DNA from: a virus
Virus genome (UHGV): UHGV-0230703
Length of the DNA: 37,329 bases
Strand: one strand, 5' to 3'
Within the stretch, counting starts at the first letter, position 1. Every line of letters begins with the position of its first letter. Made by a program: the position numbers and the translations under genes. The notes under the pieces are model-generated. The model was not told the DNA's origin. It did not search any database and saw only the letters and a program-made list of their open reading frames with translations. Shown here piece after piece: positions 1 through 37,329 of the stretch.

Positions 1-262
1 ACATGAATTGGGACACGCTTCTAAACATCATGATAATTATTTTTTATATAACTTAGCATTCTCTCTACATTCAAAAATGGAATATGAAGCTGATCGCTTT
101 ATGATTGAAAATTTATTAGATAGCTATATTGCAAAATCTGAATTGGAACCACACAACATCAATTACATGAAATTTATCGAAGATAATAATTTAAGTGTTC
201 GCTTCGAACCGCTTGTGAAAGAATTATTAAAAGCTCGCATTTATTGTTATGTAGCTCTCTAA
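1..262 (+). CDS. immA: ImmA/IrrE-family zinc metallopeptidase, C-terminal part (continues from 37178..37329 across the window junction)
   Basis: Frame of ORF 8..262 is open back to nt 2 (cat gaa ttg gga cac = H E L G H); joined to the window end it reads ...KYRRQRTL-L-HELGHASKHH, an HEXXH motif; position directly downstream of an XRE repressor is typical of ImmA. Confidence 0.8.
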   Translation, partial: HELGHASKHHDNYFLYNLAFSLHSKMEYEADRFMIENLLDSYIAKSELEPHNINYMKFIEDNNLSVRFEPLVKELLKARIYCYVAL

Positions 263-316: not shown

Positions 317-628
317 ATGATATATCCAGAATTCAAAGAATGGTTAGAAAAAAACACAATCGGATACGAAACATTTATCATCAAAGCTACTAATTATCAA
401 ATTGAAAAAAATAAAAATAGACCCCCAAAAAAACGCTGGGATGATAAGAAAATAGATAAAGCTGTATTAGAAATGTGGAAACAAGTCGTGACTAACTTGT
501 ATCAAACAATTCGTAAAGAAAAAGGAGTTCCATTAATTAACGGGAAGGAAATATGGCTTGAATTTATAGAGGAACAAGGACTGATCGAATTTTTCAATGA
601 TAGCATGGCAGAATTAGAATTTGAATAG
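317..628 (+). CDS. hypothetical Lys-rich 103-aa protein immediately upstream of int (same operon as cI-immA)
   Basis: ORF with RBS AAAGGTGA 7 nt upstream of ATG; ends 8 nt before int start. Confidence 0.6.
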   Translation: MIYPEFKEWLEKNTIGYETFIIKATNYQIEKNKNRPPKKRWDDKKIDKAVLEMWKQVVTNLYQTIRKEKGVPLINGKEIWLEFIEEQGLIEFFNDSMAELEFE

Positions 629-636
629 GGGTAATA

Positions 637-1788
637 TTGATGGCAATGATAAAACAATATAAAAAGAAAAATGGCGAAAAAGCATGGTACTTTAAAACTT
701 ATCTCGGTATTGATCCGCTAACAGGAAAGAAAAAATATACTACTAAACGAGGATTTAGAACACAAAAAGAAGCAAAAACAGCACTTTCTAGGTTAGAACT
801 AGAATTACAAAAAACAGGAATGCCCACAAGTACAAATACTACTTTCAAAGAAGCAGCAGAATTATGGCTAGAAAGCTACAAAAAAACTGTAAAAGAAAGT
901 TCATATTCAAGGACTAAAATAATCTTTAATAAACATATATATCCCAAATTTGGAAATATTAAGCTTTCTAAAATTAATACGGCATATTGTCAAAAGGTAG
1001 TAAATGATTGGAGTGAAAAAGGAACTTCAAAGCAGTACCCTCTTTTCATAAACTATATGAATAAAGTTTTTAAGTATGCTATAAATATTGGTTTAACATC
1101 TGATAATCCAACATTAAATTTACTTATTCCAAAGCCACAAATTAAAACAGAAAAGAAATTAAAATTATATACAAAAGAACAGTTGGAATTATTTCTAGAT
1201 GAAGTATCTCAAGAACAGAATCCATATTTTAAAAACAGAGACTATACGCTCTTTAGACTATTAGCATTCAGCGGATGTAGAATCGGCGAAATATTAGCAC
1301 TCACTTGGGACAATATTAATTTTAAAACAAATGAAATGGCCATTAAAAAAACTGTAGCTCGTTCAGATAAATACTATATATCTGAAACTCCTAAAACCAA
1401 AAAATCAAATCGAATAATTTATTTAGATGAAAAAACTATAAAGCAACTAAAATTTTGGAAGCTCGAACAAAGAAAGTACTTATTTCAATTAGGATTTACC
1501 AAAGCTAATTATTTGTTTACCAATGACGAAAATAATTTCACAATTAATCAGTCAGTGGCAGAAAGATACAATATATATCGTGAGCGTGCCGGCTTACCTT
1601 ATATCGGTCTGCATGGTTTTAGACATACACATGCATCAATGCTATATGAGGCAGGCGCAGATCACAAAGAAGTCCAAGAAAGAATGGGCCACGCAAATAT
1701 AAAAACTACTATGGACACATATACACACATTACTAACAGCAAAAAAGAAGAAACAACACAAAAACTAACAAATTATATTAACTTCTAA
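637..1788 (+). CDS. int: tyrosine-type site-specific integrase with AP2-like N-terminal arm-binding domain
   Basis: N-terminus KAWYFKTYLGIDPLTGKKKYTTKRGFRTQKEA (phage integrase arm-binding domain); catalytic signature R (GCRIGEILAL), HxxR (LHGFRHTHAS), Y (TMDTYTHI). Confidence 0.9.
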   Translation: MMAMIKQYKKKNGEKAWYFKTYLGIDPLTGKKKYTTKRGFRTQKEAKTALSRLELELQKTGMPTSTNTTFKEAAELWLESYKKTVKESSYSRTKIIFNKHIYPKFGNIKLSKINTAYCQKVVNDWSEKGTSKQYPLFINYMNKVFKYAINIGLTSDNPTLNLLIPKPQIKTEKKLKLYTKEQLELFLDEVSQEQNPYFKNRDYTLFRLLAFSGCRIGEILALTWDNINFKTNEMAIKKTVARSDKYYISETPKTKKSNRIIYLDEKTIKQLKFWKLEQRKYLFQLGFTKANYLFTNDENNFTINQSVAERYNIYRERAGLPYIGLHGFRHTHASMLYEAGADHKEVQERMGHANIKTTMDTYTHITNSKKEETTQKLTNYINF

Positions 1789-1791
1789 GAA

Positions 1792-1815
1792 AGTATGGTC
1801 AAAAGTATGGTCAAA
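1792..1815 (+). repeat. tandem direct repeat AGTATGGTCAAA x2 (putative integrase arm-type site)
   Basis: exact 12-bp period seen in sequence. Confidence 0.6.
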
Positions 1816-2018
1816 AAAAATCCCATAATTTACAAAAAAGCTCCATCCCTTGCCACACAAGAGATAGAGCAGTTTATTTATTAAGCTTCTTGAGCTACTG
1901 GATAAACAGACACTTCAATTATACTGTTTCCTGATAAGCTCTCAATTCTTCTGAACCCATGATGTTAGTGCTTTTCTTCTATTATTAAATATCTTGGAAT
2001 TTTCTATTCTTTCTAAAA

Positions 2019-2039
2019 AGTATGGTCAAAGTATGGTCA
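2019..2039 (+). repeat. tandem direct repeat AGTATGGTCA(A) x2, same orientation as 1792..1815 (putative arm-type site)
   Basis: AGTATGGTCAAAGTATGGTCA, 11-bp period; 215 bp from first pair. Confidence 0.6.
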
Positions 2040-2092
2040 CTATTGATAGAATGTTAATAGTAGTAGAAAGCTGATATCTAGGAGGAACTAAT

Positions 2093-2887
2093 GTGAGTAA
2101 ACAATGTGCAAAGTGCGGAGGTAAAATTGGCTTAACTTCATATAAAATCAAAGATAAACAAATTGTTTGCGGCAATTGTATGAAAAAAGCTGGTTACGGT
2201 ATGACTACTCCTTATAAAATAATAAGATCTTTGAATTTAGAAGATTTAGATAAGGATCCATCAGAAAAAAGAAAATTAAACATATCTGATCATACTGCAC
2301 ATAACAATCATGATATAGGTAATGATAGAATGAGAACCACTGAAGAGATGGTAGAATTTTGTCTTAAATACGGCTACGGTAAAGGAATGACTAAAAAATG
2401 GACAACTCATCATTTTAACTTAATATCAGATCAACTTAACAGTGACGAATACGTAATCTTCTGCTTTGTAGGATTGCATAATTATATCTCATCAACTAAG
2501 CATGACAATAATTATGCATACGCATTAACTAATAAACGTTTAATTGTAGCTCAACAAAAAATGATAGGCAATAATGTACAAAGTATTATATTAGACAATT
2601 TAAATAATATTAGTAAAAAAAGAGGAATGCTGTTGGGTACATTAACTATTGATACTCTTGGTAAAGTATTGAATGTTGCAGTTGATAAAGATACTGTTGA
2701 TAGGATAAGTGATTCTTTAAACGAAATTATTTATAATTTAAAAAGAAGAAATATTTCTGCTACAAATTCCAATACATCAACAATTTCCTCAGCTTCAGAA
2801 ATAAGAAAATATAAAGAACTATTGGATGATGGAATCATTACAGAAGAAGAATTTAATAAAAAGAAACAAGAATTATTAGATTTATAA
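2093..2887 (+). CDS. accessory protein: N-terminal CxxC..CxxC zinc ribbon, central bacterial PH-like domain, C-terminal SHOCT domain
   Basis: GTG start with RBS AGGAGG 7 nt upstream; MSKQCAKCGG...VCGNCMKK; ...ALTNKRLIVAQQKMIG... PH-like; C-terminus IRKYKELLDDGIITEEEFNKKKQELLDL matches the SHOCT consensus. Confidence 0.75.
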   Translation: MSKQCAKCGGKIGLTSYKIKDKQIVCGNCMKKAGYGMTTPYKIIRSLNLEDLDKDPSEKRKLNISDHTAHNNHDIGNDRMRTTEEMVEFCLKYGYGKGMTKKWTTHHFNLISDQLNSDEYVIFCFVGLHNYISSTKHDNNYAYALTNKRLIVAQQKMIGNNVQSIILDNLNNISKKRGMLLGTLTIDTLGKVLNVAVDKDTVDRISDSLNEIIYNLKRRNISATNSNTSTISSASEIRKYKELLDDGIITEEEFNKKKQELLDL

Positions 2888-2933
2888 TATCTATCAAAGA
2901 AGATGGGCATTTAATTTAGCTCATCTTTTTCTA

Positions 2934-2962
2934 TTTACAATACAAACATTTGTTCGTATACT
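2934..2962 (+). promoter_or_regulatory. sigma-A-like promoter TTTACA-17-TATACT for the 100-aa gene
   Basis: -35 TTTACA 2934..2939, 17-nt spacer, -10 TATACT 2957..2962, then RBS GAGGTGA and ATG 2982. Confidence 0.45.
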
Positions 2963-2981
2963 CTTTTTGAGGTGAACTTTT

Positions 2982-3284
2982 ATGCTGATGGAAGGAAAAA
3001 CACAATTATGGTTTAAATTTGATCCTTTGAATAGATTTATCAAAGATTTTTATAAAGTATGGGATTCAGAAGTTTTCTTTTTAGCAATCGAAGACAGTTT
3101 ATTAATCAATCTCTACTATTCTAATAAGAACTACTTTAAAATTCCTGCTGCGAAAACGAGAATGAAGAAGGATGTATACTTTTTATTTGATGTGGTGACT
3201 GACGTGCCGGACGCACGTAGCGATCATCGGCGTTATGACTATATAAAGTATACTTTCGTTGATCCAGAAAGGTATAAAGATTAA
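2982..3284 (+). CDS. hypothetical 100-aa protein, second gene of the plus-strand accessory cassette
   Basis: ATG with RBS GAGGTGA; own promoter upstream and hairpin terminator downstream. Confidence 0.7.
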   Translation: MLMEGKTQLWFKFDPLNRFIKDFYKVWDSEVFFLAIEDSLLINLYYSNKNYFKIPAAKTRMKKDVYFLFDVVTDVPDARSDHRRYDYIKYTFVDPERYKD

Positions 3285-3288
3285 AGTA

Positions 3289-3308
3289 GGCTACCTAAAA
3301 AGGTAGCC
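3289..3308 (+). terminator. hairpin GGCTACC-taaaaa-GGTAGCC after the accessory cassette
   Basis: perfect 7-bp inverted repeat 5 nt after the stop codon; U-tract weak (ttttat). Confidence 0.45.
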
Positions 3309-3513
3309 CGGAACGGATTTTATCACCATACTTATGAAAGGAGATATTTTTAAGTTAGTATTAAGATTGTGTAATATGATGATATCTATATTTTATAGTA
3401 TCAGTGCTATAAAATCAAAAATAAGTCACTAATTAACTATCACTCCAATTATAAGTCTTTTTTCCATTATTTTTTACAGTTATATGGTATGCTTTTTAAT
3501 GGCTTCAAATATA

Positions 3514-3575
3514 AAAGAGTTTAAAGCGTAACACACTTATTGGGGAGTGGTTTTTGGGGAACGCTTTAAACTCTT
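3514..3575. other. long hairpin: 15-bp perfect stem (AAGAGTTTAAAGCGT / ACGCTTTAAACTCTT) enclosing a 31-nt G-rich loop containing TTTTTGGGGAA
   Basis: seen directly; no coding potential; a related element is at 4059..4116. Confidence 0.5.
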
Positions 3576-3698
3576 CTTTATTATTATCTCACAATATAAC
3601 TCAAATGTCTTTCTATTTAAAAATCAAAGTAAAACTTTTCAAATATACAGAAGTATAACTATGTGAAACATCCTTTCATTAATCCATAAAAGGATACA

Positions 3699-3723
3699 TA
3701 AAAAAGCCACTCATTTGAGTGGC
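3699..3723 (-). terminator. rho-independent terminator downstream of the tRNA-like gene
   Basis: stem GCCACTCA/TGAGTGGC followed on the minus strand by TTTTTT. Confidence 0.6.
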
Positions 3724-3798
3724 AATGAAGAAAAGCTTTAGCTTGTATAATACTCTTCAAAAAATTCTAACACAGAACAATTCAATTGGCTACGTTAA

Positions 3799-3872
3799 TG
3801 TACCCTGTAGGACTCGAGCCTACGACCGGACGGTTATGAGCCGTCTGCTCTAACCAACTGAGCTAAGGGTAT
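3799..3872 (-). tRNA. tRNA-like gene, anticodon CAT (Met, or Ile via lysidine), with non-canonical A1/C72 and C54
   Basis: minus-strand cloverleaf ATACCCT-TA-GCTC-AGTTGGTTA-GAGC-A-GACGG-CTCATAA-CCGTC-CGGTC-GTAGG-CTCGAGT-CCTAC-AGGGTAC-A; D arm and anticodon arm canonical; CCA not encoded; followed by terminator 3699..3723. Confidence 0.5.
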
Positions 3873-4058
3873 GGAAAGCCACCACAACTCCTGCAAACAA
3901 AAAGAATGGACCTGAGAAAAGATAAATTATTTTTTTCATTCTTTACGTTGCGGTGGCATCTTTATTATTACATATTTAATAGCAAAAAACTAGATTGTAC
4001 TTATTCTTTGTAAAATATATTATTTTATGCTATTATTTCCAAGTCATAAAAAGAAAAA

Positions 4059-4116
4059 AGCTTCAGATACTTATCTTTTTGGGGAAAGACTCTAGGGTGA
4101 GGGAGTATCTGAAGCT
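4059..4116. other. long hairpin: 12-bp perfect stem (AGCTTCAGATAC / GTATCTGAAGCT) with 34-nt loop containing TTTTTGGGGAA, A-run before and T-run after
   Basis: seen directly; shares loop motif and architecture with 3514..3575. Confidence 0.5.
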
Positions 4117-4260
4117 TTTTTCTATGTTTATTATCTCACATAGTTATTTTTTAGTCTATTATTTGCTTAATTTTTTATATTATAATAATTTTATTTGATC
4201 CTTAATTAGTAACGAACTACTCTAAATTGCTAGCAATAATTACGGTATCTAGCTTAAAAT

Positions 4261-4286
4261 AAAAAAACACCTCAAATGAGGTGTTT
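4261..4286 (-). terminator. rho-independent terminator of csp
   Basis: stem AACACCTC/GAGGTGTT followed on the minus strand by a 7-T run, 12 nt after the csp stop. Confidence 0.65.
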
Positions 4287-4297
4287 AAAGTTCAACA

Positions 4298-4495
4298 TTA
4301 TTTTACAATATTTACTGCTTGAGGGCCACGTTGACCTTCTTCAATATCATAAGTAACTGCTTGGCCTTCATCTAAAGACTTGAAGCCTTCTCCCTGGATC
4401 GCTGAGAAATGTGCAAATACGTCATTTCCATCTTCTCCAGTGATAAATCCAAAACCTTTGTCTGAGTTAAACCATTTTACTGTACCGTTATTCAT
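4298..4495 (-). CDS. csp: cold-shock protein, CspA family (65 aa)
   Basis: [18 protein letters not shown]...DVFAHFSAI contains RNP1 (KGFGFI) and RNP2 (VFAHF) motifs; RBS GGAGGA. Confidence 0.95.
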
Positions 4496-4710
4496 ATATA
4501 TTTCCTCCTAATACGTATATAATACGTGTTTTGTTGCAATTAATATTACTTTGTAAAAGGAGTTTTTATAGTGTGAATATATCGCTCAGATTACGTTTCA
4601 AATTAGATTACTTATTTACTATAACATGGATGTAATGCTAACACAAGGATAAATATTCAATATGCGGTTTAATACAAAGAAGTAGGGTTAACATTTAAAA
4701 GAGTTAATAG

Positions 4711-4857
4711 CAGAACAAAAAAAGTTGTCAATATATAAAGCGAACCTATTTAGCTCATCGCAGCACTGCTCGTGGTTTTATTAGAAACAAGGCTACTCTT
4801 GAGGATTTGGAAGAATTAAAGAAGCTAATTGAAGAAAGAGAAAAATCCCTCACCTAA
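4711..4857 (+). pseudogene. start-less 48-codon ORF, apparent 3' gene remnant (…YLAHRSTARGFIRNKATLEDLEELKKLIEEREKSLT*) ending at the bidirectional terminator
   Basis: open frame bounded upstream by TAA/TAG with no ATG/GTG/TTG start until near its end; C-terminus-like sequence. Confidence 0.3.
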
Positions 4858-4876
4858 TATTGTAGTGAGGGATTTT
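4842..4876. terminator. bidirectional rho-independent terminator (AAAATCCCTCAC / GTGAGGGATTTT) between the membrane-protein gene and the csp region
   Basis: 12-bp perfect stem with an 11-nt loop; T-runs follow on both strands. Confidence 0.65.
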
Positions 4877-4883
4877 TTGTATG

Positions 4884-6254
4884 CTATCTGTTCATAACCG
4901 TTAATATCAAGGTACAAATACCTAGCATGGTTAACCCAAATTGCAACAATTCTTTTTTTTGTACACTCATACTTTTCATTAGCTCTTTAACTCCCATTAG
5001 TACTAAGATGGTAATAACAACGTAAAGTATATAGTACGTTCGCATTCCTGAAGCCCAGACCGTGGGAGAAAATCCCATAATTAATCTTGAGCAAAATCCC
5101 ATTATCATCAAAATAACTAAGAAAGTAGCAGTTCTTTTATTGTCAAAACTTAAATAAATTCCAACAACTAAACATAGTAACAACCCCAAAACTGCTAAAG
5201 TGGCTATCCAGGTACCAGGATAAAAAAGTGACAGTTTCGTTCCTCCCTCTGTAAAGAGATTATTCAGGTTACTACTACTCCAAATCATTGCTCTTTTATT
5301 TCCATGAACATAAGTAAAACTTTGTCCCATTGTATTGCCAAAATAAATAATCAAATTTAAGAAAAACGGCAATGCAGTCAATATACGTACATAGTAGTTT
5401 TGACATTTCCTATATGTTAAAAGGAATACTAGGAAAAATAGCAATAAAAATAAAATATTCGTGTCTAAAAAAAATGGCTTTCCAAATGATGAAATACCTA
5501 AGTCTAGCTTATTAAGAAAGTTGAAATCTTTATATTCAGGAAACCATTTATTAATTTCATGCGTAGCACGTAATGCATTCCCTGGAGTTGTCAAAGAGAA
5601 AATCAATTCTGCTAAACTTATTAGTGAAAATACTGATAACTTATAATTGTATCGCCTATTAGCAATCAAATACAGACTAACTATGCTTGTTAGAACAAAA
5701 AAACAGGAGTTGACTTGTTCTTGATTAGTTGAAAATATCAACAGAGGAATACTTACCCAATATATTTTTCTAGTTATTTCTCCCCCTCTTAAAAGTTGGA
5801 AAAACGGATAAAAGGCTAGTAAACTAAACGCTACTGGCCACTGATAGTTTAATGTAGTTGCTCTCCAACCCGTTTCCCCCATTACTGTTAATGGTATTAA
5901 ACAGTATATAGAACAAACTAATAACAAATTTTTAACATTTGTTTTCTCAAAAACATATTTGCAGAGTAATACTACAGTCCCTAACATAATCGTAGAATTT
6001 AATATTTTCCATAGCATAAAGTGTTTAGAAAAAAACATTAAGAATAGTTCCACAATAATTCTTGAACTCCATGTTTTGTAATGTTCTATCGAAGCACCCA
6101 AATAGCCAAGTTTATCTAATCTACTTGCGTAAGCTAAATCATCTGCTCTAATAGTCGGCATATACATATTAAAGAGCAAAAAGACAACCCAAATCCCTAA
6201 TAGCATCACGATCAGTTCTTTATTGTACATTATTTTTCTATTATGTTTGTTCAT
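4884..6254 (-). CDS. polytopic (about 12 TM) membrane protein with GT-C-like features; lysogenic-conversion / surface-glycosylation candidate
   Basis: start moved to ATG 6254 (RBS AAGGAG 8 nt upstream) from the track's TTG 6281; many hydrophobic helices; acidic RADDLAY motif in the first loop as in GT-C glycosyltransferases. Confidence 0.8.
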   Translation of the reverse strand: MNKHNRKIMYNKELIVMLLGIWVVFLLFNMYMPTIRADDLAYASRLDKLGYLGASIEHYKTWSSRIIVELFLMFFSKHFMLWKILNSTIMLGTVVLLCKYVFEKTNVKNLLLVCSIYCLIPLTVMGETGWRATTLNYQWPVAFSLLAFYPFFQLLRGGEITRKIYWVSIPLLIFSTNQEQVNSCFFVLTSIVSLYLIANRRYNYKLSVFSLISLAELIFSLTTPGNALRATHEINKWFPEYKDFNFLNKLDLGISSFGKPFFLDTNILFLLLFFLVFLLTYRKCQNYYVRILTALPFFLNLIIYFGNTMGQSFTYVHGNKRAMIWSSSNLNNLFTEGGTKLSLFYPGTWIATLAVLGLLLCLVVGIYLSFDNKRTATFLVILMIMGFCSRLIMGFSPTVWASGMRTYYILYVVITILVLMGVKELMKSMSVQKKELLQFGLTMLGICTLILTVMNR

Positions 6255-6352
6255 TTTTATACTCCTTATTATATTTCCCAATAGAGTATAACATAGCTTT
6301 AAGCGTTACTTAAAGATAACTTTTAAGTTATTTTTTAAATACTTGTATGTAT

Positions 6353-6368
6353 CCCCTCATGTGAGGGG
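6353..6368 (-). terminator. hairpin CCCCTCA-tg-TGAGGGG just downstream of the endolysin stop
   Basis: 7-bp G/C-rich inverted repeat; no clear T-tract. Confidence 0.35.
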
Positions 6369-6372
6369 CTAA

Positions 6373-7347
6373 TTATAGCGTCAAATAAATATCAGAAATC
6401 CGCACGTCATTTACTGCGCCTTCACCGTTTGACTGATTGCATCGGCGCAAAATGATATCAATCTTCTTCCCTTTCATCCAACTAGAATCAAAAGTAACAT
6501 CAAAACCTAGCGCATCGCCACCTTGATAGCCGTATGCCTTTTTGACATCTGGCCGAGCAATCCCTTGAGATTGGATACGTGTTAATTCTTTAGGTGTCCC
6601 ATGTTCCATCACAAGTACGTAAGCATAAGTTCCAATTGCACCTTGTGGTTTATCAGGAACCAACCAACCAGCTACACGAACTGTTTTATCTGTTACCTTT
6701 TTGAAAATATCTAGTTTGCCATAAGCATTTCCCTGATGCGTTGGCGTGCTTGCTGATACTTTATCGTCATGATTTTGATCTTCTGTACTGCCATCAGGTT
6801 TCAATGCGGAATTATCATGGTATTTCTTGATTTGTGAAATAAAGTAATCTTGCATTTGAACAGTGATGGCTGCAGGAACTGCTAACGTAGAATCATAGCC
6901 ACAATGTTCCATCAGTGAACGCTTAGGGCATTCAGTTGCTGAAAATTGATGATGGCATTTGACTGTATCTCGGTTGACTGGCAATCCGTAAAAACGAAGA
7001 TCTTCTGCTGCTTGCCAGAAAGCATTTTGTTCTGCTTGTAGGAAAACTGCTTTTGGTGTTTCACGATTTCCACGCACTTCATATCCGATATAGCTATTAT
7101 TACCATCAGAATTAGCGACATGCCAAGCACGATTATAAGTATCTTCTGTGCGAATAATCGTGTTTTCATCACAGTAATAATGAGCAAATCCTGCTTCTAA
7201 CTGTTTATCTGTCATTCCTGCTAAACGATTCATTTCTTGTTCTGCAGTCGTGTTTGTCCAAGTATTATGGATGACTACACCCTTCACGTCTCCTACACGT
7301 CTACCTGCTACACCACGACATACTGAATTATTGATAATATTGACCAT
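6373..7347 (-). CDS. endolysin: N-acetylmuramoyl-L-alanine amidase (amidase_2/PGRP-like) with C-terminal cell-wall-binding region
   Basis: N-terminal amidase_2-like region (GVVIHNTW...YYCDEN...H...C) and position directly after the holin. Confidence 0.9.
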   Translation of the reverse strand: MVNIINNSVCRGVAGRRVGDVKGVVIHNTWTNTTAEQEMNRLAGMTDKQLEAGFAHYYCDENTIIRTEDTYNRAWHVANSDGNNSYIGYEVRGNRETPKAVFLQAEQNAFWQAAEDLRFYGLPVNRDTVKCHHQFSATECPKRSLMEHCGYDSTLAVPAAITVQMQDYFISQIKKYHDNSALKPDGSTEDQNHDDKVSASTPTHQGNAYGKLDIFKKVTDKTVRVAGWLVPDKPQGAIGTYAYVLVMEHGTPKELTRIQSQGIARPDVKKAYGYQGGDALGFDVTFDSSWMKGKKIDIILRRCNQSNGEGAVNDVRISDIYLTL

Positions 7348-25032: not shown

Positions 25033-26340
25033 TTAAAACATTCTTCTGATTTTGTTCCGCTGCTCTTTAGTAACGGTTGATTTCTTTTTGGCCCACATGT
25101 CTTCGTTGAAGGCGTATCTTGTCGCATCAATCGTATGGTTATCTTTATCCTCTAACCTTGGCTTAGGATTTCCATCACGATCTGTTTGATAGTCGATGTT
25201 CTCGAATTCCTTAGCAATATTCGGAGTGCGTAGTGGATCAATACAAATAAAAGCCAAATCATCTAGCCACTGTTCACCGTACTCAACAGAATCAGGTCCT
25301 TTTTTCACGCCTTTTATTCCTTTCATGCCATGTTCATTAACTAATTCAGCATTACTCTTTGGCTCTGCGCTATCTGAAAATATCTCCTCATTTTGGTAAC
25401 CTTTAGATTTAGCTTTGTTTGCAAATTCTCTATTGCTGATCTTCACGCCGTAAATTTCATCGATTGCATAAATACCGTTTTTCTTTTTGTCATAATGCCA
25501 TCTGACGAACGCTAAAGGATCCGTTGCATATCCATAGTCCAAACCGTTGCGGATGTTATCAAAGTTAGAGATCATTTCATCTGTAATAGAACCTTTCTTA
25601 ACTTGTAGATTATCAAAAGGTACAACTCCTGACCCCACAGCTTTACCATCATATTCCCACTCAGCCCTTCTTGGATTCCTTGCTCTAGTTGCCTCAACTT
25701 CTTTCAGAAATTCCTTAGAGATGAATGGATTATCCCGATAGGTCGAGTGATGAATAAAAGTGTTGTCTGGTTGAAAAGAAGTCTCATATTTTTTATTTAC
25801 CCAAGATTGTTTTCTCTTAGGTGGATTGTAGCTGTAAAAAAACTTATAAAAAAGACCATCATCTAATTCTCCACGTAAAAGGGAGTTCGTGATAGTCGTG
25901 ACTTCATCTTCTGTTTTAAATTCTGCTAATTCTTCAATCCAACCTATAGCAAATGGAAACTTGCTATCTTTTAAAGACTTGATTCGTTCTGGGTTTTGAG
26001 CACCACGAAATATCATATAATTCCCTCTTGGAAGATAAGTAATTTTAAGTGGTGACTTATTAAACTTAAATAGGCGCGATACTCCCTGCTTCTCAATTGC
26101 CCATTTCATTTGTTCGTAAATAGATTGCTCAAGTGTATTATCAACATAACGTATACCTACAGCATTCACTGCATATCTCATAAGTAACTGAGTAACGATG
26201 TGCGCTATATCTGATGATTTTCCTGAACCCCGGCCACCTTTACAAACTATATTAAGAATATCTTGATTTAAAGTTGCTCTCCATACTGAATGAAACTTCG
26301 GCGGAAGAAATTCAGATAGTTTTTTAGCCATCATCATCAC
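25033..26340 (-). CDS. terL: terminase large subunit
   Basis: Walker A CKGGRGSGKS near the N-terminus; 435 aa; overlaps the terS end. Confidence 0.9.
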   Translation of the reverse strand: MMMMAKKLSEFLPPKFHSVWRATLNQDILNIVCKGGRGSGKSSDIAHIVTQLLMRYAVNAVGIRYVDNTLEQSIYEQMKWAIEKQGVSRLFKFNKSPLKITYLPRGNYMIFRGAQNPERIKSLKDSKFPFAIGWIEELAEFKTEDEVTTITNSLLRGELDDGLFYKFFYSYNPPKRKQSWVNKKYETSFQPDNTFIHHSTYRDNPFISKEFLKEVEATRARNPRRAEWEYDGKAVGSGVVPFDNLQVKKGSITDEMISNFDNIRNGLDYGYATDPLAFVRWHYDKKKNGIYAIDEIYGVKISNREFANKAKSKGYQNEEIFSDSAEPKSNAELVNEHGMKGIKGVKKGPDSVEYGEQWLDDLAFICIDPLRTPNIAKEFENIDYQTDRDGNPKPRLEDKDNHTIDATRYAFNEDMWAKKKSTVTKEQRNKIRRMF

Positions 26341-26779
26341 TACTTATATCATCAATGAAAGTAGGTATTTCAGAAATTTCAACTTTCTGCTTATCTACAA
26401 ATGCTGCGTTTATTTTATAATAGTGCTCAAGTGCTTGGTTACGTTCTTTGAAACCTGCTGAATATTCACTCACTTCACGCTCTATGATTTCGTTTGTATA
26501 AGGATCTCTCTTAACAACTTCAAAGCGTTGTGGTTCTCCTTTTGCAATAGAAGCAGTAATAGCCAAAGCTTCTTCCATTGTTAAATGCCTCTTAGTTTGA
26601 ACTTCTTTTAGCTTCTCTTGAATGTAGTCGGATACTTTTCCACCTTTTTCCACCAATTTTTCTTGTGCGTTCTTAGCGTAGTTTTCTTTATAGCCAGCTT
26701 TCAGCGCTGACTGATAAGCATTGCCTGTGATGATGTACTCATCAGCAAAGGCTTGTTGCTTAGGATTCAACTTACTCAT
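26324..26779 (-). CDS. terS: terminase small subunit
   Basis: 151 aa with N-terminal HTH (KQQAFADEYIITGNAYQSALKAGY) typical of Terminase_2. Confidence 0.8.
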   Translation of the reverse strand: MSKLNPKQQAFADEYIITGNAYQSALKAGYKENYAKNAQEKLVEKGGKVSDYIQEKLKEVQTKRHLTMEEALAITASIAKGEPQRFEVVKRDPYTNEIIEREVSEYSAGFKERNQALEHYYKINAAFVDKQKVEISEIPTFIDDISSDDDG

Positions 26780-35803: not shown

Positions 35804-36514
35804 CTAAACATCCATTCTTGTTTGTCTTAATTCGAATTTCGTTACACTAGATGGTTCCCAACTATTAATAAAGTCCATCACCTTTTCGTAGTGTTTGGCT
35901 CTCAGTTGAGTCCGTGCTCCTACACCTGAAATCTTTTTGACTCCACTGTTTATATCTTTGAAAAGTAATCCAATAGTTTTACGATTTGAGCGATTAATTG
36001 AGTAGGCATCCGCTACTTCGTACACTCTTTTATTAATTCGAGAAGAAATAATGCTGTATTCACCTTGTGGTAACGGCTGATTTTCTTTTAAATCGAAAAC
36101 TTCTTGTTCAATGACATCCACTCGTTGATTAGTTTCCTCACTTGCTTCTAAAGCTAGTAGTGCCAATCCTCTTTTTGTAGTTGGAATGGATACTGATTTC
36201 TCTTTTATTGTTTTTTCCATTTCATTGAATGCGTTTATATACTGCAATTTAAATTGCAATGCTTTCTTTCCAGTAAATCCCATAGCAAGCAATGTAAATC
36301 CATCACGATTCATAATTATTTGACGATATTTTTGTTTGTTTTGGGGATGAATATAAGTATCTTCGTAAAATAGGTCTGCATAATTTTGTGCCACCCCTTC
36401 TTTCAGCTCATCGATGGCTTTTAGAACAACTTTATGTTCTTTCCCGAACACCTCCGCTACTTGCAAACTAGTCGTTACTGCTTGTTGATCTTTCATAATT
36501 ACTAAGTTTGTCAT
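35804..36514 (-). CDS. Rha-family phage regulatory protein / antirepressor, first gene of the leftward lytic operon
   Basis: N-terminal Rha domain (LVIMKDQQAVTTSLQVAEVFGKEHKVVLKAI); RBS GGGAGAG. Confidence 0.75.
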   Translation of the reverse strand: MTNLVIMKDQQAVTTSLQVAEVFGKEHKVVLKAIDELKEGVAQNYADLFYEDTYIHPQNKQKYRQIIMNRDGFTLLAMGFTGKKALQFKLQYINAFNEMEKTIKEKSVSIPTTKRGLALLALEASEETNQRVDVIEQEVFDLKENQPLPQGEYSIISSRINKRVYEVADAYSINRSNRKTIGLLFKDINSGVKKISGVGARTQLRAKHYEKVMDFINSWEPSSVTKFELRQTRMDV

Positions 36515-36541
36515 ATGTGTATCTCTCCCTTGTTAAATTCT

Positions 36542-36564
36542 GTAAGCTAATAAAATTAGCTAAT
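36542..36564. promoter_or_regulatory. operator-like site GTAAGCTAAT-aaaa-TTAGCTAAT
   Basis: inverted partner with the same GTAAGCTAAT half at 36699..36721. Confidence 0.45.
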
Positions 36565-36568
36565 TTTG

Positions 36569-36597
36569 TTGACACTTTCTACAAAGTTTTGTAGAAT
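36569..36597 (+). promoter_or_regulatory. rightward consensus promoter TTGACA-17-TAGAAT with palindrome CTACAAAgtTTTGTAG (36579..36594) in the spacer
   Basis: seen directly; points toward cI about 215 bp away. Confidence 0.5.
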
Positions 36598-36698
36598 AAG
36601 TGCATAGTTAAATAAGCGCAGAATTACCCTATAAATTAACATTCTAAGTTTCCCGACCTCGAATTTGTTTACTTTATTAGGTGTCTTTCTTATTGCTT

Positions 36699-36721
36699 GT
36701 TAGCTTATTAAATTAGCTTAC
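36699..36721. promoter_or_regulatory. operator-like site (minus strand GTAAGCTAAT-ttaa-TAAGCTAAC)
   Basis: inverted copy of site 36542..36564. Confidence 0.45.
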
Positions 36722-36727
36722 GAACAT

Positions 36728-36756
36728 ATATTATTATAAAGTTTTGTAGATGTCAA
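36728..36756 (-). promoter_or_regulatory. leftward consensus promoter TTGACA-17-TAATAT with TTTGTAGA / TCTACAAA half-sites around it
   Basis: minus strand; faces the rightward promoter, so the transcripts would overlap by about 150 nt. Confidence 0.5.
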
Positions 36757-36812
36757 CGATTATCTACAAAGTTTTTAAGATATGTTTTAGGCATGATCGG
36801 AGAATCATTATT

Positions 36813-37160
36813 ATGACAACATTTGAGAGAGTAAAAATGTTAGCAGATAAACGCAAAATATCTATTGTCGAATTGGAAGAAAAACTTAATTTTAGTAAAA
36901 ATTCACTTTACGCGTGGAAAAAAAGTAAGCCATCCATTGATAAACTAAATGCAGTTGCTGACTATTTTAATGTCTCAACTGATTATTTGTTAGGACGCAC
37001 AGATGATCCCGACATAGGAGTTGCACCAGAGGAAAGAAAACTAACCGTGGAAGAAGCTTTAGCATCTGTTATGAGTAGCGACGGAAAACCGCTCACCGAT
37101 AATGATAGGGAAATACTATCAGCTATGATTGAAGCATATTTAGAGAAAAAAGATAACTAA
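36813..37160 (+). CDS. XRE-family lysogeny repressor (ImmR/CI-like) without an S24 autopeptidase domain
   Basis: start trimmed to ATG 36813 (RBS GGAGAA); HTH ISIVELEEKLNFSKNSLYAWKKSK; followed by immA. Confidence 0.85.
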   Translation: MTTFERVKMLADKRKISIVELEEKLNFSKNSLYAWKKSKPSIDKLNAVADYFNVSTDYLLGRTDDPDIGVAPEERKLTVEEALASVMSSDGKPLTDNDREILSAMIEAYLEKKDN

Positions 37161-37177: not shown

Positions 37178-37329
37178 TTGGACAATCAAATTGAAATGAT
37201 AATTAATGAACTCGGCGTTAAGGTGGAAGAAAAAGAACATCTTGACGCAGATGGTCATTATATCGCATGTATGAATACCATAGTAATAAAAGCTAATTTA
37301 TCTAAGTATAGAAGACAAAGAACCTTATT
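37178..37329 (+). CDS. immA: ImmA/IrrE-family metallopeptidase, N-terminal part (TTG start, RBS AGGTGA; runs off the window end and resumes at nt 1)
   Basis: MDNQIEMIINELGVKVEEKEHLDADGHYIACMNTIVIKANLSKYRRQRTL then in-frame junction to LHELGH at 1..17. Confidence 0.8.
   Translation, partial: MDNQIEMIINELGVKVEEKEHLDADGHYIACMNTIVIKANLSKYRRQRTL

What the first reader, a model, noticed from the sequence alone, without database searches (positions are those of the whole stretch)
37178..37329. Window is a closed circle: immA is split across the ends and HELGH is rebuilt at the junction
The ORF from TTG 37178 runs off the 3' end in frame (...KYRRQRTL plus 'tt'). Bases 1-17 (a cat gaa ttg gga cac) complete that codon and continue the same frame into ORF 8..262, giving ...RTLLHELGHASKHH. 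A zinc-peptidase HEXXH motif therefore appears only when end is joined to start. The joined 134-aa protein is the ImmA/IrrE partner expected right after an XRE repressor. Consequences: the window is a complete circular (or circularly permuted) phage genome rather than a chromosomal prophage with flanks; cI-immA-orf103-int form one rightward operon; and the moron island with attP sits between int and the lysis end of the late operon.
Basis: seen in the sequence. Interest (0 to 1): 0.7.

Follow-up and report, generated by a model that had tools for sequence, protein, structure and literature searches.

The report
Circular Enterococcus phage, immA cut open
The window is the complete circular map of an ordinary Enterococcus faecium temperate phage whose record happens to be opened inside its ImmA-type repressor-cleaving protease gene, so the "split gene" comes from where the circle was cut and is not a biological oddity.

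Summary
Confirmed, and ordinary. Joining base 37329 to base 1 gives one open frame (TTG 37178 to stop 262, 137 aa). It passes Pfam Peptidase_M78 (41.8 bits, cut-off 22) and carries HELGH plus invariant Glu78/Glu80. A model of a 94%-identical homologue is closest in fold to COG2856-type domains (PrpR, IrrE/PprI).

The join is exact. It aligns without gaps to two phage genomes, about 30 IMG/VR contigs and Enterococcus chromosomes. Two chromosomal loci are 99.85-99.88% identical over 12 kb that run straight through the join. The exact joined protein is already public, in E. faecium and annotated ImmA/IrrE.

I located attP. It has a 36-bp core (1880-1915) identical to the 3' end of host rpmA (ribosomal protein L27). 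Paired AGTATGGTCA arm repeats flank it on both sides. Prophages in chromosomes are this circle opened at that core: int-core-rpmA on one side, host-core-PH-domain gene on the other. The window has an intact attP, no host flank and every phage module.

Small corrections: the protein is 137 aa, not 134, and HELGH lies wholly in bases 2-16, so the split codon is Leu51. The cI-immA-orf103-int operon is plausible but inferred. Novelty: already known. Interest: low.

The parts
37178..37329 (+). immA, 5' part (aa 1-50 plus the first two bases of the Leu51 codon). Alternative in-frame starts: GTG 37169 (140 aa) and ATG 37196 (131 aa).
   Evidence: The 140-aa and 137-aa forms both exist as exact public proteins, and the listed NCBI ImmA/IrrE-named cluster members are mostly 131 aa.
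1..262 (+). immA, 3' part (third base of Leu51, HELGH at bases 2-16, the MEYEADRF segment with Glu78/Glu80, stop at 260-262). The listed ORF 8..262 is an artefact of reading the circle as linear.
36813..37160 (+). cI-like XRE-family repressor, 115 aa (ATG 36813, RBS GGAGAA). N-terminal HTH, and a C-terminal ~65 aa that stays linked to ImmA across relatives.
   Evidence: Pfam HTH_19/HTH_3/HTH_26 and PHROG 8. Three HTH variants on one conserved C-terminal tail.
36515..36812 (.). Switch region. 18-nt palindromic boxes TCTACAAAGTTTTGTAGA at 36578, 36733 and 36763 (probable cI operators). Invariant 21-nt boxes at 36541 and 36698. Best promoter matches are + 36569-36597 (towards cI) and - 36756-36728 (towards ant and the early genes), arranged face to face.
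   Evidence: The 18-nt boxes change together with the cI HTH type at all three positions, while both -35 hexamers are conserved.
317..628 (+). orf103, a conserved gene of unknown function between immA and int.
   Evidence: PHROG 7823 E=1.9e-41, no Pfam or PADLOC match. Present at the same spacing in six chromosomal prophages.
640..1788 (+). Tyrosine integrase with an N-terminal arm-DNA-binding domain, 382 aa.
   Evidence: Pfam Phage_integrase, Phage_int_SAM_3, Arm-DNA-bind_4; PHROG 1. ATG 640 agrees with the annotated relatives.
1792..1813 (+). attP P-arm: two direct AGTATGGTCA repeats (probable integrase arm-type sites).
   Evidence: The window has four exact copies, all within attP.
1840..1870 (-). 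Strong hairpin followed by U6 on the minus strand, starting 11 nt after the phage-supplied rpmA stop codon (1881-1883). In the lysogen it would serve as a replacement terminator for the host L21-Prp-L27 genes. A weaker hairpin on the + strand lies downstream of int.
   Evidence: -23 kcal/mol, z = -4.45, on the minus strand; -14.9 kcal/mol, z = -3.47, on the plus strand.
1880..1915 (.). attP core, 36 bp: ATTAAGCTTCTTGAGCTACTGGATAAACAGACACTT. Its reverse complement encodes the last 10 codons and the stop of host rpmA (..VSVYPVAQEA*).
   Evidence: attL (P-core-rpmA) in L003 and L070-L075. attR (host-core-P') in L038 and L076-L079. attP (P-core-P') in the window, L001, L002, L005, L018 and L019.
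2019..2039 (+). attP P'-arm: two direct AGTATGGTCA repeats.
2093..6281 (.). Cargo ('moron') island between attP and the endolysin. It holds a DUF4428/bPH_3/SHOCT protein (2093-2887 +), DUF5960 (2982-3284 +), tRNA-Met (3799-3872 -), a cold-shock-domain protein (4298-4495 -) and a DUF6056/GT_STM0557_N membrane protein (4884-6281 -).
35804..36514 (-). Rha/ORF6C-type anti-repressor-like protein, first gene of the leftward early operon facing cI.
   Evidence: Pfam Phage_pRha + ORF6C; PHROG 373.

Best explanation
The window is the whole 37,329-bp circular map of a temperate siphovirus of Enterococcus faecium. It was written out starting at an arbitrary point inside the gene for an ImmA/IrrE-type (MEROPS M78, COG2856) zinc metallopeptidase.

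Shown here:
- The ends join exactly.
- The joined gene is a catalytically intact M78 family member placed directly after the cI-like XRE repressor.
- The circle carries an intact attP whose core is the 3' end of host rpmA.
- Chromosomal prophages are this same circle opened at that core.

Inferred by analogy with ICEBs1 ImmR/ImmA, Listeria MpaR and Deinococcus IrrE/DdrO:
- In the lysogen, cI binds the 18-nt palindromic boxes. It shuts off the leftward early promoter (ant and the cro-like genes) and autoregulates the rightward promoter, which transcribes cI-immA-orf103-int as one unit.
- On DNA damage or another signal, ImmA cleaves cI in its conserved C-terminal part. Repression is lost and the lytic genes are expressed.
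- Int, with its arm-binding domain and the four AGTATGGTCA arm sites, recombines attL and attR back to the attP seen here.
- Integration keeps L27 intact, because the phage core supplies its last 10 codons and stop codon, and the P arm supplies a new terminator.
For: Join and frame.

Contiguity of the join: two GenBank phages at 96.4% with an annotated ImmA/IrrE gene. Gapless 500-nt alignment. About 30 IMG/VR contigs and E. ratti. The exact 40-mer across the join occurs in an independent contig. The exact joined protein is on 44 contigs (137 aa) and 132 contigs (140 aa), including E. faecium accessions OTP00822.1 and OTP04509.1. L070 and L073 are 99.85-99.88% identical from window 27165 through 37329/1 to 1915.

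attP.

Completeness: small and large terminase, portal, capsid, tape measure, tail, holin, endolysin and replication genes.

Operon: no + strand terminator call between 36813 and 1788, and one 11/12 promoter match upstream. Gene spacing is identical in six chromosomes.

Operators: the boxes co-vary with the cI HTH type.

Mechanism precedent: PMC6872733; abstracts of PMC6868357 and PMC12828697.
Against: - No reads or physical data are available, so 'closed circle' is a statement about the map. It is not shown for the molecule.
- Proteolysis of cI by this ImmA, its trigger and the cleavage site are untested.
- Sequence-only searches of the PDB were not significant (E = 0.076 to an unrelated chain; E = 0.12-0.17 to IrrE with the family profile).
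- The total count of promoter-like sites is no higher than in shuffled sequence (7 found, 6.1 expected). Only the two best sites have comparative support.
- A weak promoter match just before int (591-620) leaves room for separate int transcription.
- The phage also encodes a Rha/Ant-like protein, so ImmA need not be the only route to induction.
Confidence: 0.92

Rival explanations
1. The window is a linear chromosomal or partial fragment, and the in-frame continuation across its ends is coincidence.
For: Nothing positive. Open stretches of 137 codons or more do span 1.5% of random positions in non-coding frames, so an open frame alone would be weak evidence.
Against: The join is reproduced base for base, without gaps, in independent phage genomes, viral contigs and chromosomes. 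The exact joined protein is public. The M78 profile alignment crosses the join. attP is intact and no host gene is present.
Confidence: 0.01
2. The map is circular, but the sequenced molecule was not a covalently closed circle. It could be a headful-packaged, circularly permuted and terminally redundant linear virion DNA, a cos-ended linear DNA, or an excised or tandem prophage whose assembly was closed and trimmed by software. This overlaps with the best explanation and does not replace it.
For: The start point lies inside a lysogeny gene, far from the terminase genes (25033-26779), as expected for an arbitrary cut of an assembler's circle. The related record PQ283533 is deposited as linear and PQ554527 as circular. 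No terminal repeat remains in the window.
Against: None from the sequence. The data cannot discriminate between these forms.
Confidence: 0.5
3. The cI/ImmA pair works mainly as a toxin-antitoxin-like or abortive stress module, as once predicted for XRE-COG2856 pairs, and not as the induction switch.
For: PMC6872733 notes that such pairs had been predicted to be toxin-antitoxin systems. CapP, a defence-system protease, is among the structural neighbours.
Against: The pair sits at the canonical immunity position, facing the early operon. The repressor's operators overlap both switch promoters and co-vary with its HTH. The experimentally studied homologous pairs (ImmR/ImmA, MpaR, IrrE/DdrO) are repressor-protease switches. 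PADLOC was run only on orf103 and the cargo genes, where its one match was the cold-shock protein, so it gives no evidence on cI or ImmA.
Confidence: 0.05
4. ImmA is dispensable or vestigial here, and induction runs through the Rha/Ant-type anti-repressor or through cI autocleavage.
For: A Rha/ORF6C anti-repressor-like gene is the first early gene. One homologue (P0044) has HELGY instead of HELGH.
Against: The catalytic residues are intact and invariant across the family. The cI protein has no S24 peptidase domain, only the HTH. ImmA and the cI C-terminal tail are kept together through three exchanges of the HTH. The ant gene is itself downstream of the repressed promoter.
Confidence: 0.08

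Closest known systems
ICEBs1 ImmR-ImmA-Int module of Bacillus subtilis (anti-repressor protease ImmA cleaves the XRE repressor ImmR)
   Same: Same gene order on one strand (repressor, M78 protease, integrase). Same family (PF06114) with HEXXH. The repressor appears to autoregulate its own promoter, since an operator lies in the promoter spacer. The precedent is described in PMC6872733; that immR-immA-int form one operon is from my own knowledge of the ICEBs1 literature.
   Different: This element is a phage, not a conjugative element. It has an extra conserved gene (orf103) between immA and int. The protease is shorter (137 aa; ImmA is about 170 aa, from memory). The switch promoters appear face to face and not back to back. 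Cleavage was not tested here.
Listeria MpaR and A118 gp35 (metalloprotease anti-repressors encoded directly after cI-like repressors)
   Same: A small stand-alone M78/DUF955 protease immediately downstream of a phage cI-like gene. PMC6872733 calls this arrangement typical of temperate phages.
   Different: MpaR acts in trans on repressors of several co-resident elements. Whether this ImmA does so is unknown, although three heteroimmune cI variants share its presumed target tail.
Deinococcus IrrE/PprI-DdrO
   Different: IrrE is about twice as long, with additional domains, is chromosomal and controls a radiation-response regulon. Sequence similarity is limited to the HEXXH segment (E = 0.12).
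Enterococcus phage vB_ElaS_B1578 (PQ283533) and the record named 'Acinetobacter phage D2SVT' (PQ554527)
   Same: 96-97% nucleotide identity over the lysogeny module and much of the late region. Same cI-ImmA-orf103-int order, the same attP, and an annotated ImmA/IrrE metallopeptidase.
   Different: Only about 55% of the window is covered. The terminase module, part of the early region and the cargo between tRNA-Met and the endolysin differ.
E. faecium chromosomal prophages at rpmA (for example in GCA_965283375.1 and GCA_038278675.1)
   Same: 99.85-99.98% identical to the window over the stretches fetched. These are the same phage in its integrated state.
   Different: They are opened at the attP core into attL and attR, with host flanks. 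Only the roughly 17 kb nearest the two prophage ends was compared.

Membership tests
Peptidase M78 / ImmA-IrrE (Pfam PF06114, COG2856) | Profile match above the curated threshold | tested here: met
   41.8 bits against a gathering score of 22, E = 1.1e-10, aa 11-102 to model positions 3-99. PHROG 87 at 4.5e-26. NCBIfam has no model that matches.
Peptidase M78 / ImmA-IrrE (Pfam PF06114, COG2856) | HEXXH zinc-binding and catalytic motif plus a downstream Glu as third ligand | tested here: met
   H52-E53-L-G-H56. E78 and E80 lie in MEYEADRF, 22-24 residues after H56. H52, E53, E78, E80 and A81 are invariant and H56 is kept in 30 of 31 homologues. Which of E78 or E80 binds the metal was not determined.
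Peptidase M78 / ImmA-IrrE (Pfam PF06114, COG2856) | Zincin fold of the IrrE type | tested here: met
Peptidase M78 / ImmA-IrrE (Pfam PF06114, COG2856) | Encoded next to, and on the same strand as, an XRE-family HTH repressor | tested here: met
   cI (36813-37160) ends 17 nt before the immA TTG. The same pairing is seen in all relatives.
Peptidase M78 / ImmA-IrrE (Pfam PF06114, COG2856) | Site-specific cleavage of the cognate repressor, stimulated by DNA damage or another signal | not testable with these tools
   Needs biochemistry or genetics. There is only indirect support: the cI C-terminal tail and ImmA stay linked through three exchanges of the HTH.
Complete circular genome (excised form) of a temperate tailed phage | Ends join exactly, without gap or overlap | tested here: met
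   Gapless 500-column alignment across the join. 99.85-99.88% identity over 12 kb through the join in L070 and L073. The exact protein is in public data.
Complete circular genome (excised form) of a temperate tailed phage | Intact attP (P arm, core, P' arm contiguous), while lysogens show attL and attR | tested here: met
   There is a single core copy in the window.
Complete circular genome (excised form) of a temperate tailed phage | All essential modules present once, and no host flank | tested here: met
   Packaging, head, tail, lysis, replication and lysogeny genes were identified. Every major ORF examined matched phage families or unknown families typical of phages.
Complete circular genome (excised form) of a temperate tailed phage | Physical evidence: reads spanning the join, or termini mapping | not testable with these tools
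   No read data are available.
Lambda-type tyrosine-integrase attP | Integrase with an arm-binding N-terminal domain, and arm-type repeats on both sides of a core shared with attB | tested here: met
   Arm-DNA-bind_4 at E = 3.9e-16. AGTATGGTCA occurs twice at 1792-1813 and twice at 2019-2039; these are the only exact copies in the window. The 36-bp core is identical in attP, attL and attR. An unoccupied attB was not retrieved.
ICEBs1-type repressor-protease-integrase operon | Co-transcription of repressor, protease and integrase from the autoregulated repressor promoter | tested here: inconclusive
   Short gaps (17, 54 and 11 nt). No + strand terminator call until the hairpin at 1840-1870. A TTGACA-17-TAGAAT promoter match at 36569-36597 with a cI box in its spacer. 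There are no transcript data, and a weak promoter match at 591-620 precedes int.

The most novel reading that the evidence does not exclude
The ImmA of this phage group may recognise the invariant C-terminal ~65 residues shared by at least three heteroimmune cI variants, which differ in their HTH and operators. If so, one ImmA could inactivate the repressors of several co-resident, mutually non-immune prophages. That would make it an MpaR-like cross-inducer coordinating polylysogens in E. faecium. Separately, the 3' end of rpmA, with a phage-supplied replacement terminator, may be an att site not yet described for Enterococcus phages. Nothing on it was found in the searched literature.
Probability: 0.3. 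Interest if true: 0.35.

Novelty: already known. Interest (0 to 1): 0.1.

Why it matters
It matters mainly for annotation. A record opened inside a gene hides that gene, here the induction protease, from linear ORF callers, and leaves a start-less fragment (8..262) that could be mis-annotated. Recognising the circle also fixes the phage's architecture: the lysogeny operon, attP at the rpmA 3' end, and the cargo island next to the lysis genes. It also identifies the host as E. faecium. There is no new biology in the finding itself. Repressor-ImmA pairs directly upstream of int are the standard arrangement in temperate phages and ICEs of Firmicutes, and this exact protein and prophage are already in public genomes.

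Tried and rejected
- Sequence-only search of solved structures with the single protein gave one insignificant, unrelated hit. With the family profile, IrrE came first, but only at E = 0.12. I used the 94%-identical P0001 instead.\n- NCBIfam has no model matching this ImmA.\n- PADLOC found no defence-system match for orf103 or the cargo genes, except a cold-shock-domain model.\n- Rfam found only the tRNA.\n- I considered the complete tRNA-Met (3799-3872) as the att site, as in tRNA-targeting phages. I rejected this because prophage boundaries map to 1880-1915 and the tRNA is internal to the prophage.\n- I looked for terminal redundancy and found none of 5 nt or more.\n- Literature searches for rpmA as an att site in Enterococcus phages returned nothing relevant.\n- My first attempt to extract the switch regions of the relatives with a fixed anchor failed. 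I replaced it with a direct alignment.

Full report
**Observation**

The last 152 bases of the window (37178-37329) read, from a TTG preceded by AGGTGAG, as LDNQIEMI...KYRRQRTL plus the dinucleotide TT. Base 1 is A and completes a Leu codon. The same frame then runs through bases 2-262 to a TAA.

- The joined ORF is 414 nt, which is 137 aa.
- HELGH is encoded wholly by bases 2-16. What the window ends split is the codon of Leu51 just before the motif, not the motif itself.
- The mechanical ORF 8..262 is simply the start-less C-terminal two thirds of this gene.
- Across the join, one frame is open for 140 codons and the other five for 7-32. In non-coding frames of this genome only 1.5% of random positions are spanned by 137 or more open codons.
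- The window has no terminal repeat.

**Identity of the joined protein**

- It passes Pfam Peptidase_M78 (PF06114) at 41.8 bits against a curated cut-off of 22. A single alignment (aa 11-102) runs through the join at aa 51.
- It matches PHROG 87 'metallo-protease' at 4.5e-26.
- All 67 database relatives carry PF06114. Those with source names are Enterococcus 'ImmA/IrrE family metallo-endopeptidase'.
- In an alignment of 31 sequences down to 34% identity, H52, E53, E78, E80 and A81 are invariant and H56 is kept in 30 of 31. This is the HEXXH-plus-Glu signature.
- Sequence-only comparison with the PDB was not significant.
- Membership in the ImmA/IrrE family is therefore met on profile, motif, fold and gene context. 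Proteolysis itself cannot be tested here.

**Is the join real?**

- A 1,564-nt query spanning the join is covered 100% at 96.4% identity by two GenBank phage records: Enterococcus phage vB_ElaS_B1578 and a record called Acinetobacter phage D2SVT. In both, an ImmA/IrrE or 'metallo-protease' gene is annotated exactly there, between the repressor and a hypothetical gene followed by the integrase.
- The 500 nt around the join align to both in 500 columns with no gap, and 59 consecutive identical bases straddle the joint. No base is missing or duplicated.
- An E. ratti genomic scaffold and about 30 IMG/VR contigs also cross it without a break. One independent contig has the exact 40-mer.
- The exact joined protein is in the public collection as an uninterrupted product. 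The 137-aa form is on 44 contigs (E. faecium OTP00822.1 and OTP04509.1) and the 140-aa GTG-start form is on 132 contigs, some of them chromosome-sized.
- Six chromosomal places were fetched. Two (L070, L073) are 99.85-99.88% identical to the window over about 12.08 kb that run from window 27165 through 37329/1 to 1915.

**attP and the integrated state**

In all chromosomal loci, similarity to the window stops exactly at 1915. It is followed by the body of rpmA (L27; TIGR00062 at 3.5e-39), then Prp and L21.

On the other side of the prophage, host DNA (PTS and LevR-like genes) meets the phage at window 1880, just upstream of the PH-domain gene. L080 there matches window 1880-6887 with one mismatch.

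The shared 36 bp (1880-1915, ATTAAGCTTCTTGAGCTACTGGATAAACAGACACTT) are the reverse complement of the last ten codons and the stop of rpmA. The three junction types are:

| Junction | Arrangement | Where seen |
|---|---|---|
| attP | P arm, core, P' arm | window, both phage records, some contigs |
| attL | P arm, core, rpmA | L003, L070-L075 |
| attR | host flank, core, P' arm | L038, L076-L079 |

- The window's only four exact copies of AGTATGGTCA sit as pairs at 1792-1813 and 2019-2039, flanking the core. This fits an integrase that has an arm-binding domain.
- A 14-bp-stem hairpin with a U6 tail on the minus strand (1870-1840; -23 kcal/mol, z = -4.45) starts 11 nt after the phage-supplied rpmA stop. 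It would terminate the host L21-Prp-L27 genes in the lysogen.
- IMG/VR prophage contigs from isolate genomes have int at one end and the PH-domain gene at the other. That is this circle opened at attP.

**Completeness**

The window encodes small and large terminase, portal, major capsid, tape measure, tail proteins, holin, endolysin, replication initiator, Sak annealase, HNH nuclease, a Rha/ORF6C anti-repressor-like protein, cI, ImmA and Int. It also has one tRNA-Met. No host flank is present. It is therefore a whole temperate siphovirus genome in its excised (attP) configuration.

The cut point lies far from the packaging genes, so it is an arbitrary linearisation. Whether the molecule was a true circle, permuted virion DNA or a software-closed contig cannot be decided without reads.

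**Regulatory module**

- cI (36813-37160, 115 aa) is an XRE-type HTH protein.
- The gaps are 17 nt (cI to immA), 54 nt (immA to orf103) and 11 nt (orf103 to int).
- No + strand terminator is called until the hairpin after int. The best promoter matches in the switch region are TTGACA-17-TAGAAT on the + strand (36569-36597) and TTGACA-17-TAATAT on the - strand (36756-36728). They face each other.
- Three copies of an 18-nt palindrome (TCTACAAAGTTTTGTAGA) lie in the spacer of the + promoter and around the -35 of the - promoter.
- Relatives carry three different cI N-terminal HTH variants on a nearly invariant C-terminal ~65 aa, followed by the same ImmA. In each variant the palindrome is replaced by a different one at all three positions, while both -35 hexamers and a second, 21-nt box family stay constant.
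- This covariation supports the boxes as cI operators and the two promoters as real. It also suggests that the conserved C-terminal tail, not the HTH, is what is coupled to ImmA.
- The single-operon claim remains an inference. [quoted passage not shown]

**Mechanism**

The mechanism is inferred. ImmA, activated after DNA damage or another signal, would cleave cI in its C-terminal part. That matches what ImmA does to ImmR, MpaR to Listeria cI-like repressors (PMC6872733) and IrrE to DdrO (abstracts). Cleavage would derepress the leftward early operon. Int would then excise the prophage to give the attP circle seen here.

**Verdict**

The observation and interpretation are correct, apart from two small slips (137 aa, and the motif not being split). 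The feature is a linearisation artefact of a known kind of phage with a known kind of switch. Near-identical prophages and the identical protein are already public. Interest is low and the novelty class is 'already known'. The side observations on operator/HTH covariation, the rpmA att site with its replacement terminator, and the mislabelled D2SVT record are more informative than the finding itself.

Noticed in passing
window 36723-36953, compared with L005, L008, L012-L015, L018, L019, L024, L035: Relatives carry three different cI N-terminal HTH variants (aa 1 to about 47) on a nearly identical C-terminal ~65 aa, followed by the same ImmA. Immunity specificity is exchanged as a cassette, while the tail presumed to be recognised by ImmA is retained.
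   Followed up: partly
window 36515-36812: The switch region has an 18-nt palindrome at 36578, 36733 and 36763 that changes together with the cI HTH type at all three positions. The two best promoter matches face each other (+ 36569-36597, - 36756-36728), so their transcripts would overlap by about 117 nt. This differs from the back-to-back arrangement of many phage switches.
   Followed up: partly
window 36541-36561 and 36698-36718: A second box family (TGTAAGCTAATAAAATTAGCT and TGTTAGCTTATTAAATTAGCT) is palindromic in each copy and invariant across all three immunity types. The two copies also form 22-nt inverted arms 136 nt apart inside the leader of the leftward early transcript. What binds them, or whether they act as RNA structure, is unknown.
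   Followed up: no
window 1840-1915: The phage integrates into the 3' end of rpmA (L27). It replaces the last 10 codons and stop with identical phage sequence and supplies a strong new terminator hairpin. The native host terminator ends up at attR. No report of rpmA as an Enterococcus phage att site was found in the searched literature.
   Followed up: partly
L002 (PQ554527.1, 'Acinetobacter phage D2SVT'): This record is deposited as a phage of A. baumannii AB5075, and a paper is cited with a title describing D2SVT as active against carbapenem-resistant A. baumannii (reference list of PMC13119066). It matches Enterococcus phage vB_ElaS_B1578 gene for gene over the compared region, including an integrase and an attP core equal to Enterococcus rpmA. 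The host assignment of the deposited sequence looks wrong, perhaps through a contaminating Enterococcus prophage.
   Followed up: partly
window 2093-6281: The cargo island next to attP holds a DUF4428 zinc-ribbon/bPH_3/SHOCT protein, DUF5960, tRNA-Met, a cold-shock-domain protein (matching the PADLOC model CSD_V) and a 465-aa DUF6056/GT_STM0557_N membrane protein. The last is possibly a GtrC-like cell-surface glycosyltransferase, which is my inference from the family name. The cargo beyond about 3285-3994 varies between relatives.
   Followed up: partly
window 3000-4818: This stretch (DUF5960, tRNA-Met, cold-shock gene) is 96.6% identical to records named Listeria phage LM 4-11-1 and LM 4-14-1. 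Parts of the early region match them at 93.6%. This is either cross-genus sharing of modules or another host-label problem.
   Followed up: no
window 25033-26779: The terminase genes are not shared with the otherwise close relative vB_ElaS_B1578. Their best nucleotide match is Brochothrix phage BtpYZU01 at about 74%, which points to mosaic replacement of the packaging module.
   Followed up: no
L072 9646-9992 (GCA_034807745.1): In one chromosomal prophage the cI gene is called as two ORFs (44 and 81 aa) instead of 115 aa, while ImmA is identical to the window's. This is either a frameshifted repressor or a sequencing error.
   Followed up: no
L080 about 3788-3823 (attR of E. faecium GCA_038278675.1): The only mismatch to the window across 1880-6887 is inside the core (ATTGAGC instead of ATTAAGC), at the position of the rpmA stop codon in the non-functional attR copy.
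   Followed up: no
L018/L039 and L019/L040 (IMG isolate-genome contigs 2728369004_000002 and 2728369003_000007): These contigs from isolate genomes carry the contiguous attP-type junction (int, core, P' arm, PH-domain gene) and not attL or attR. This suggests an episomal, excised or tandem copy in those cultures.
   Followed up: no
window 317-628: orf103 is conserved at fixed spacing between immA and int in every relative and forms its own PHROG (7823). It has no Pfam, NCBIfam-type or PADLOC match, and its role in the lysogeny operon is unknown.
   Followed up: partly
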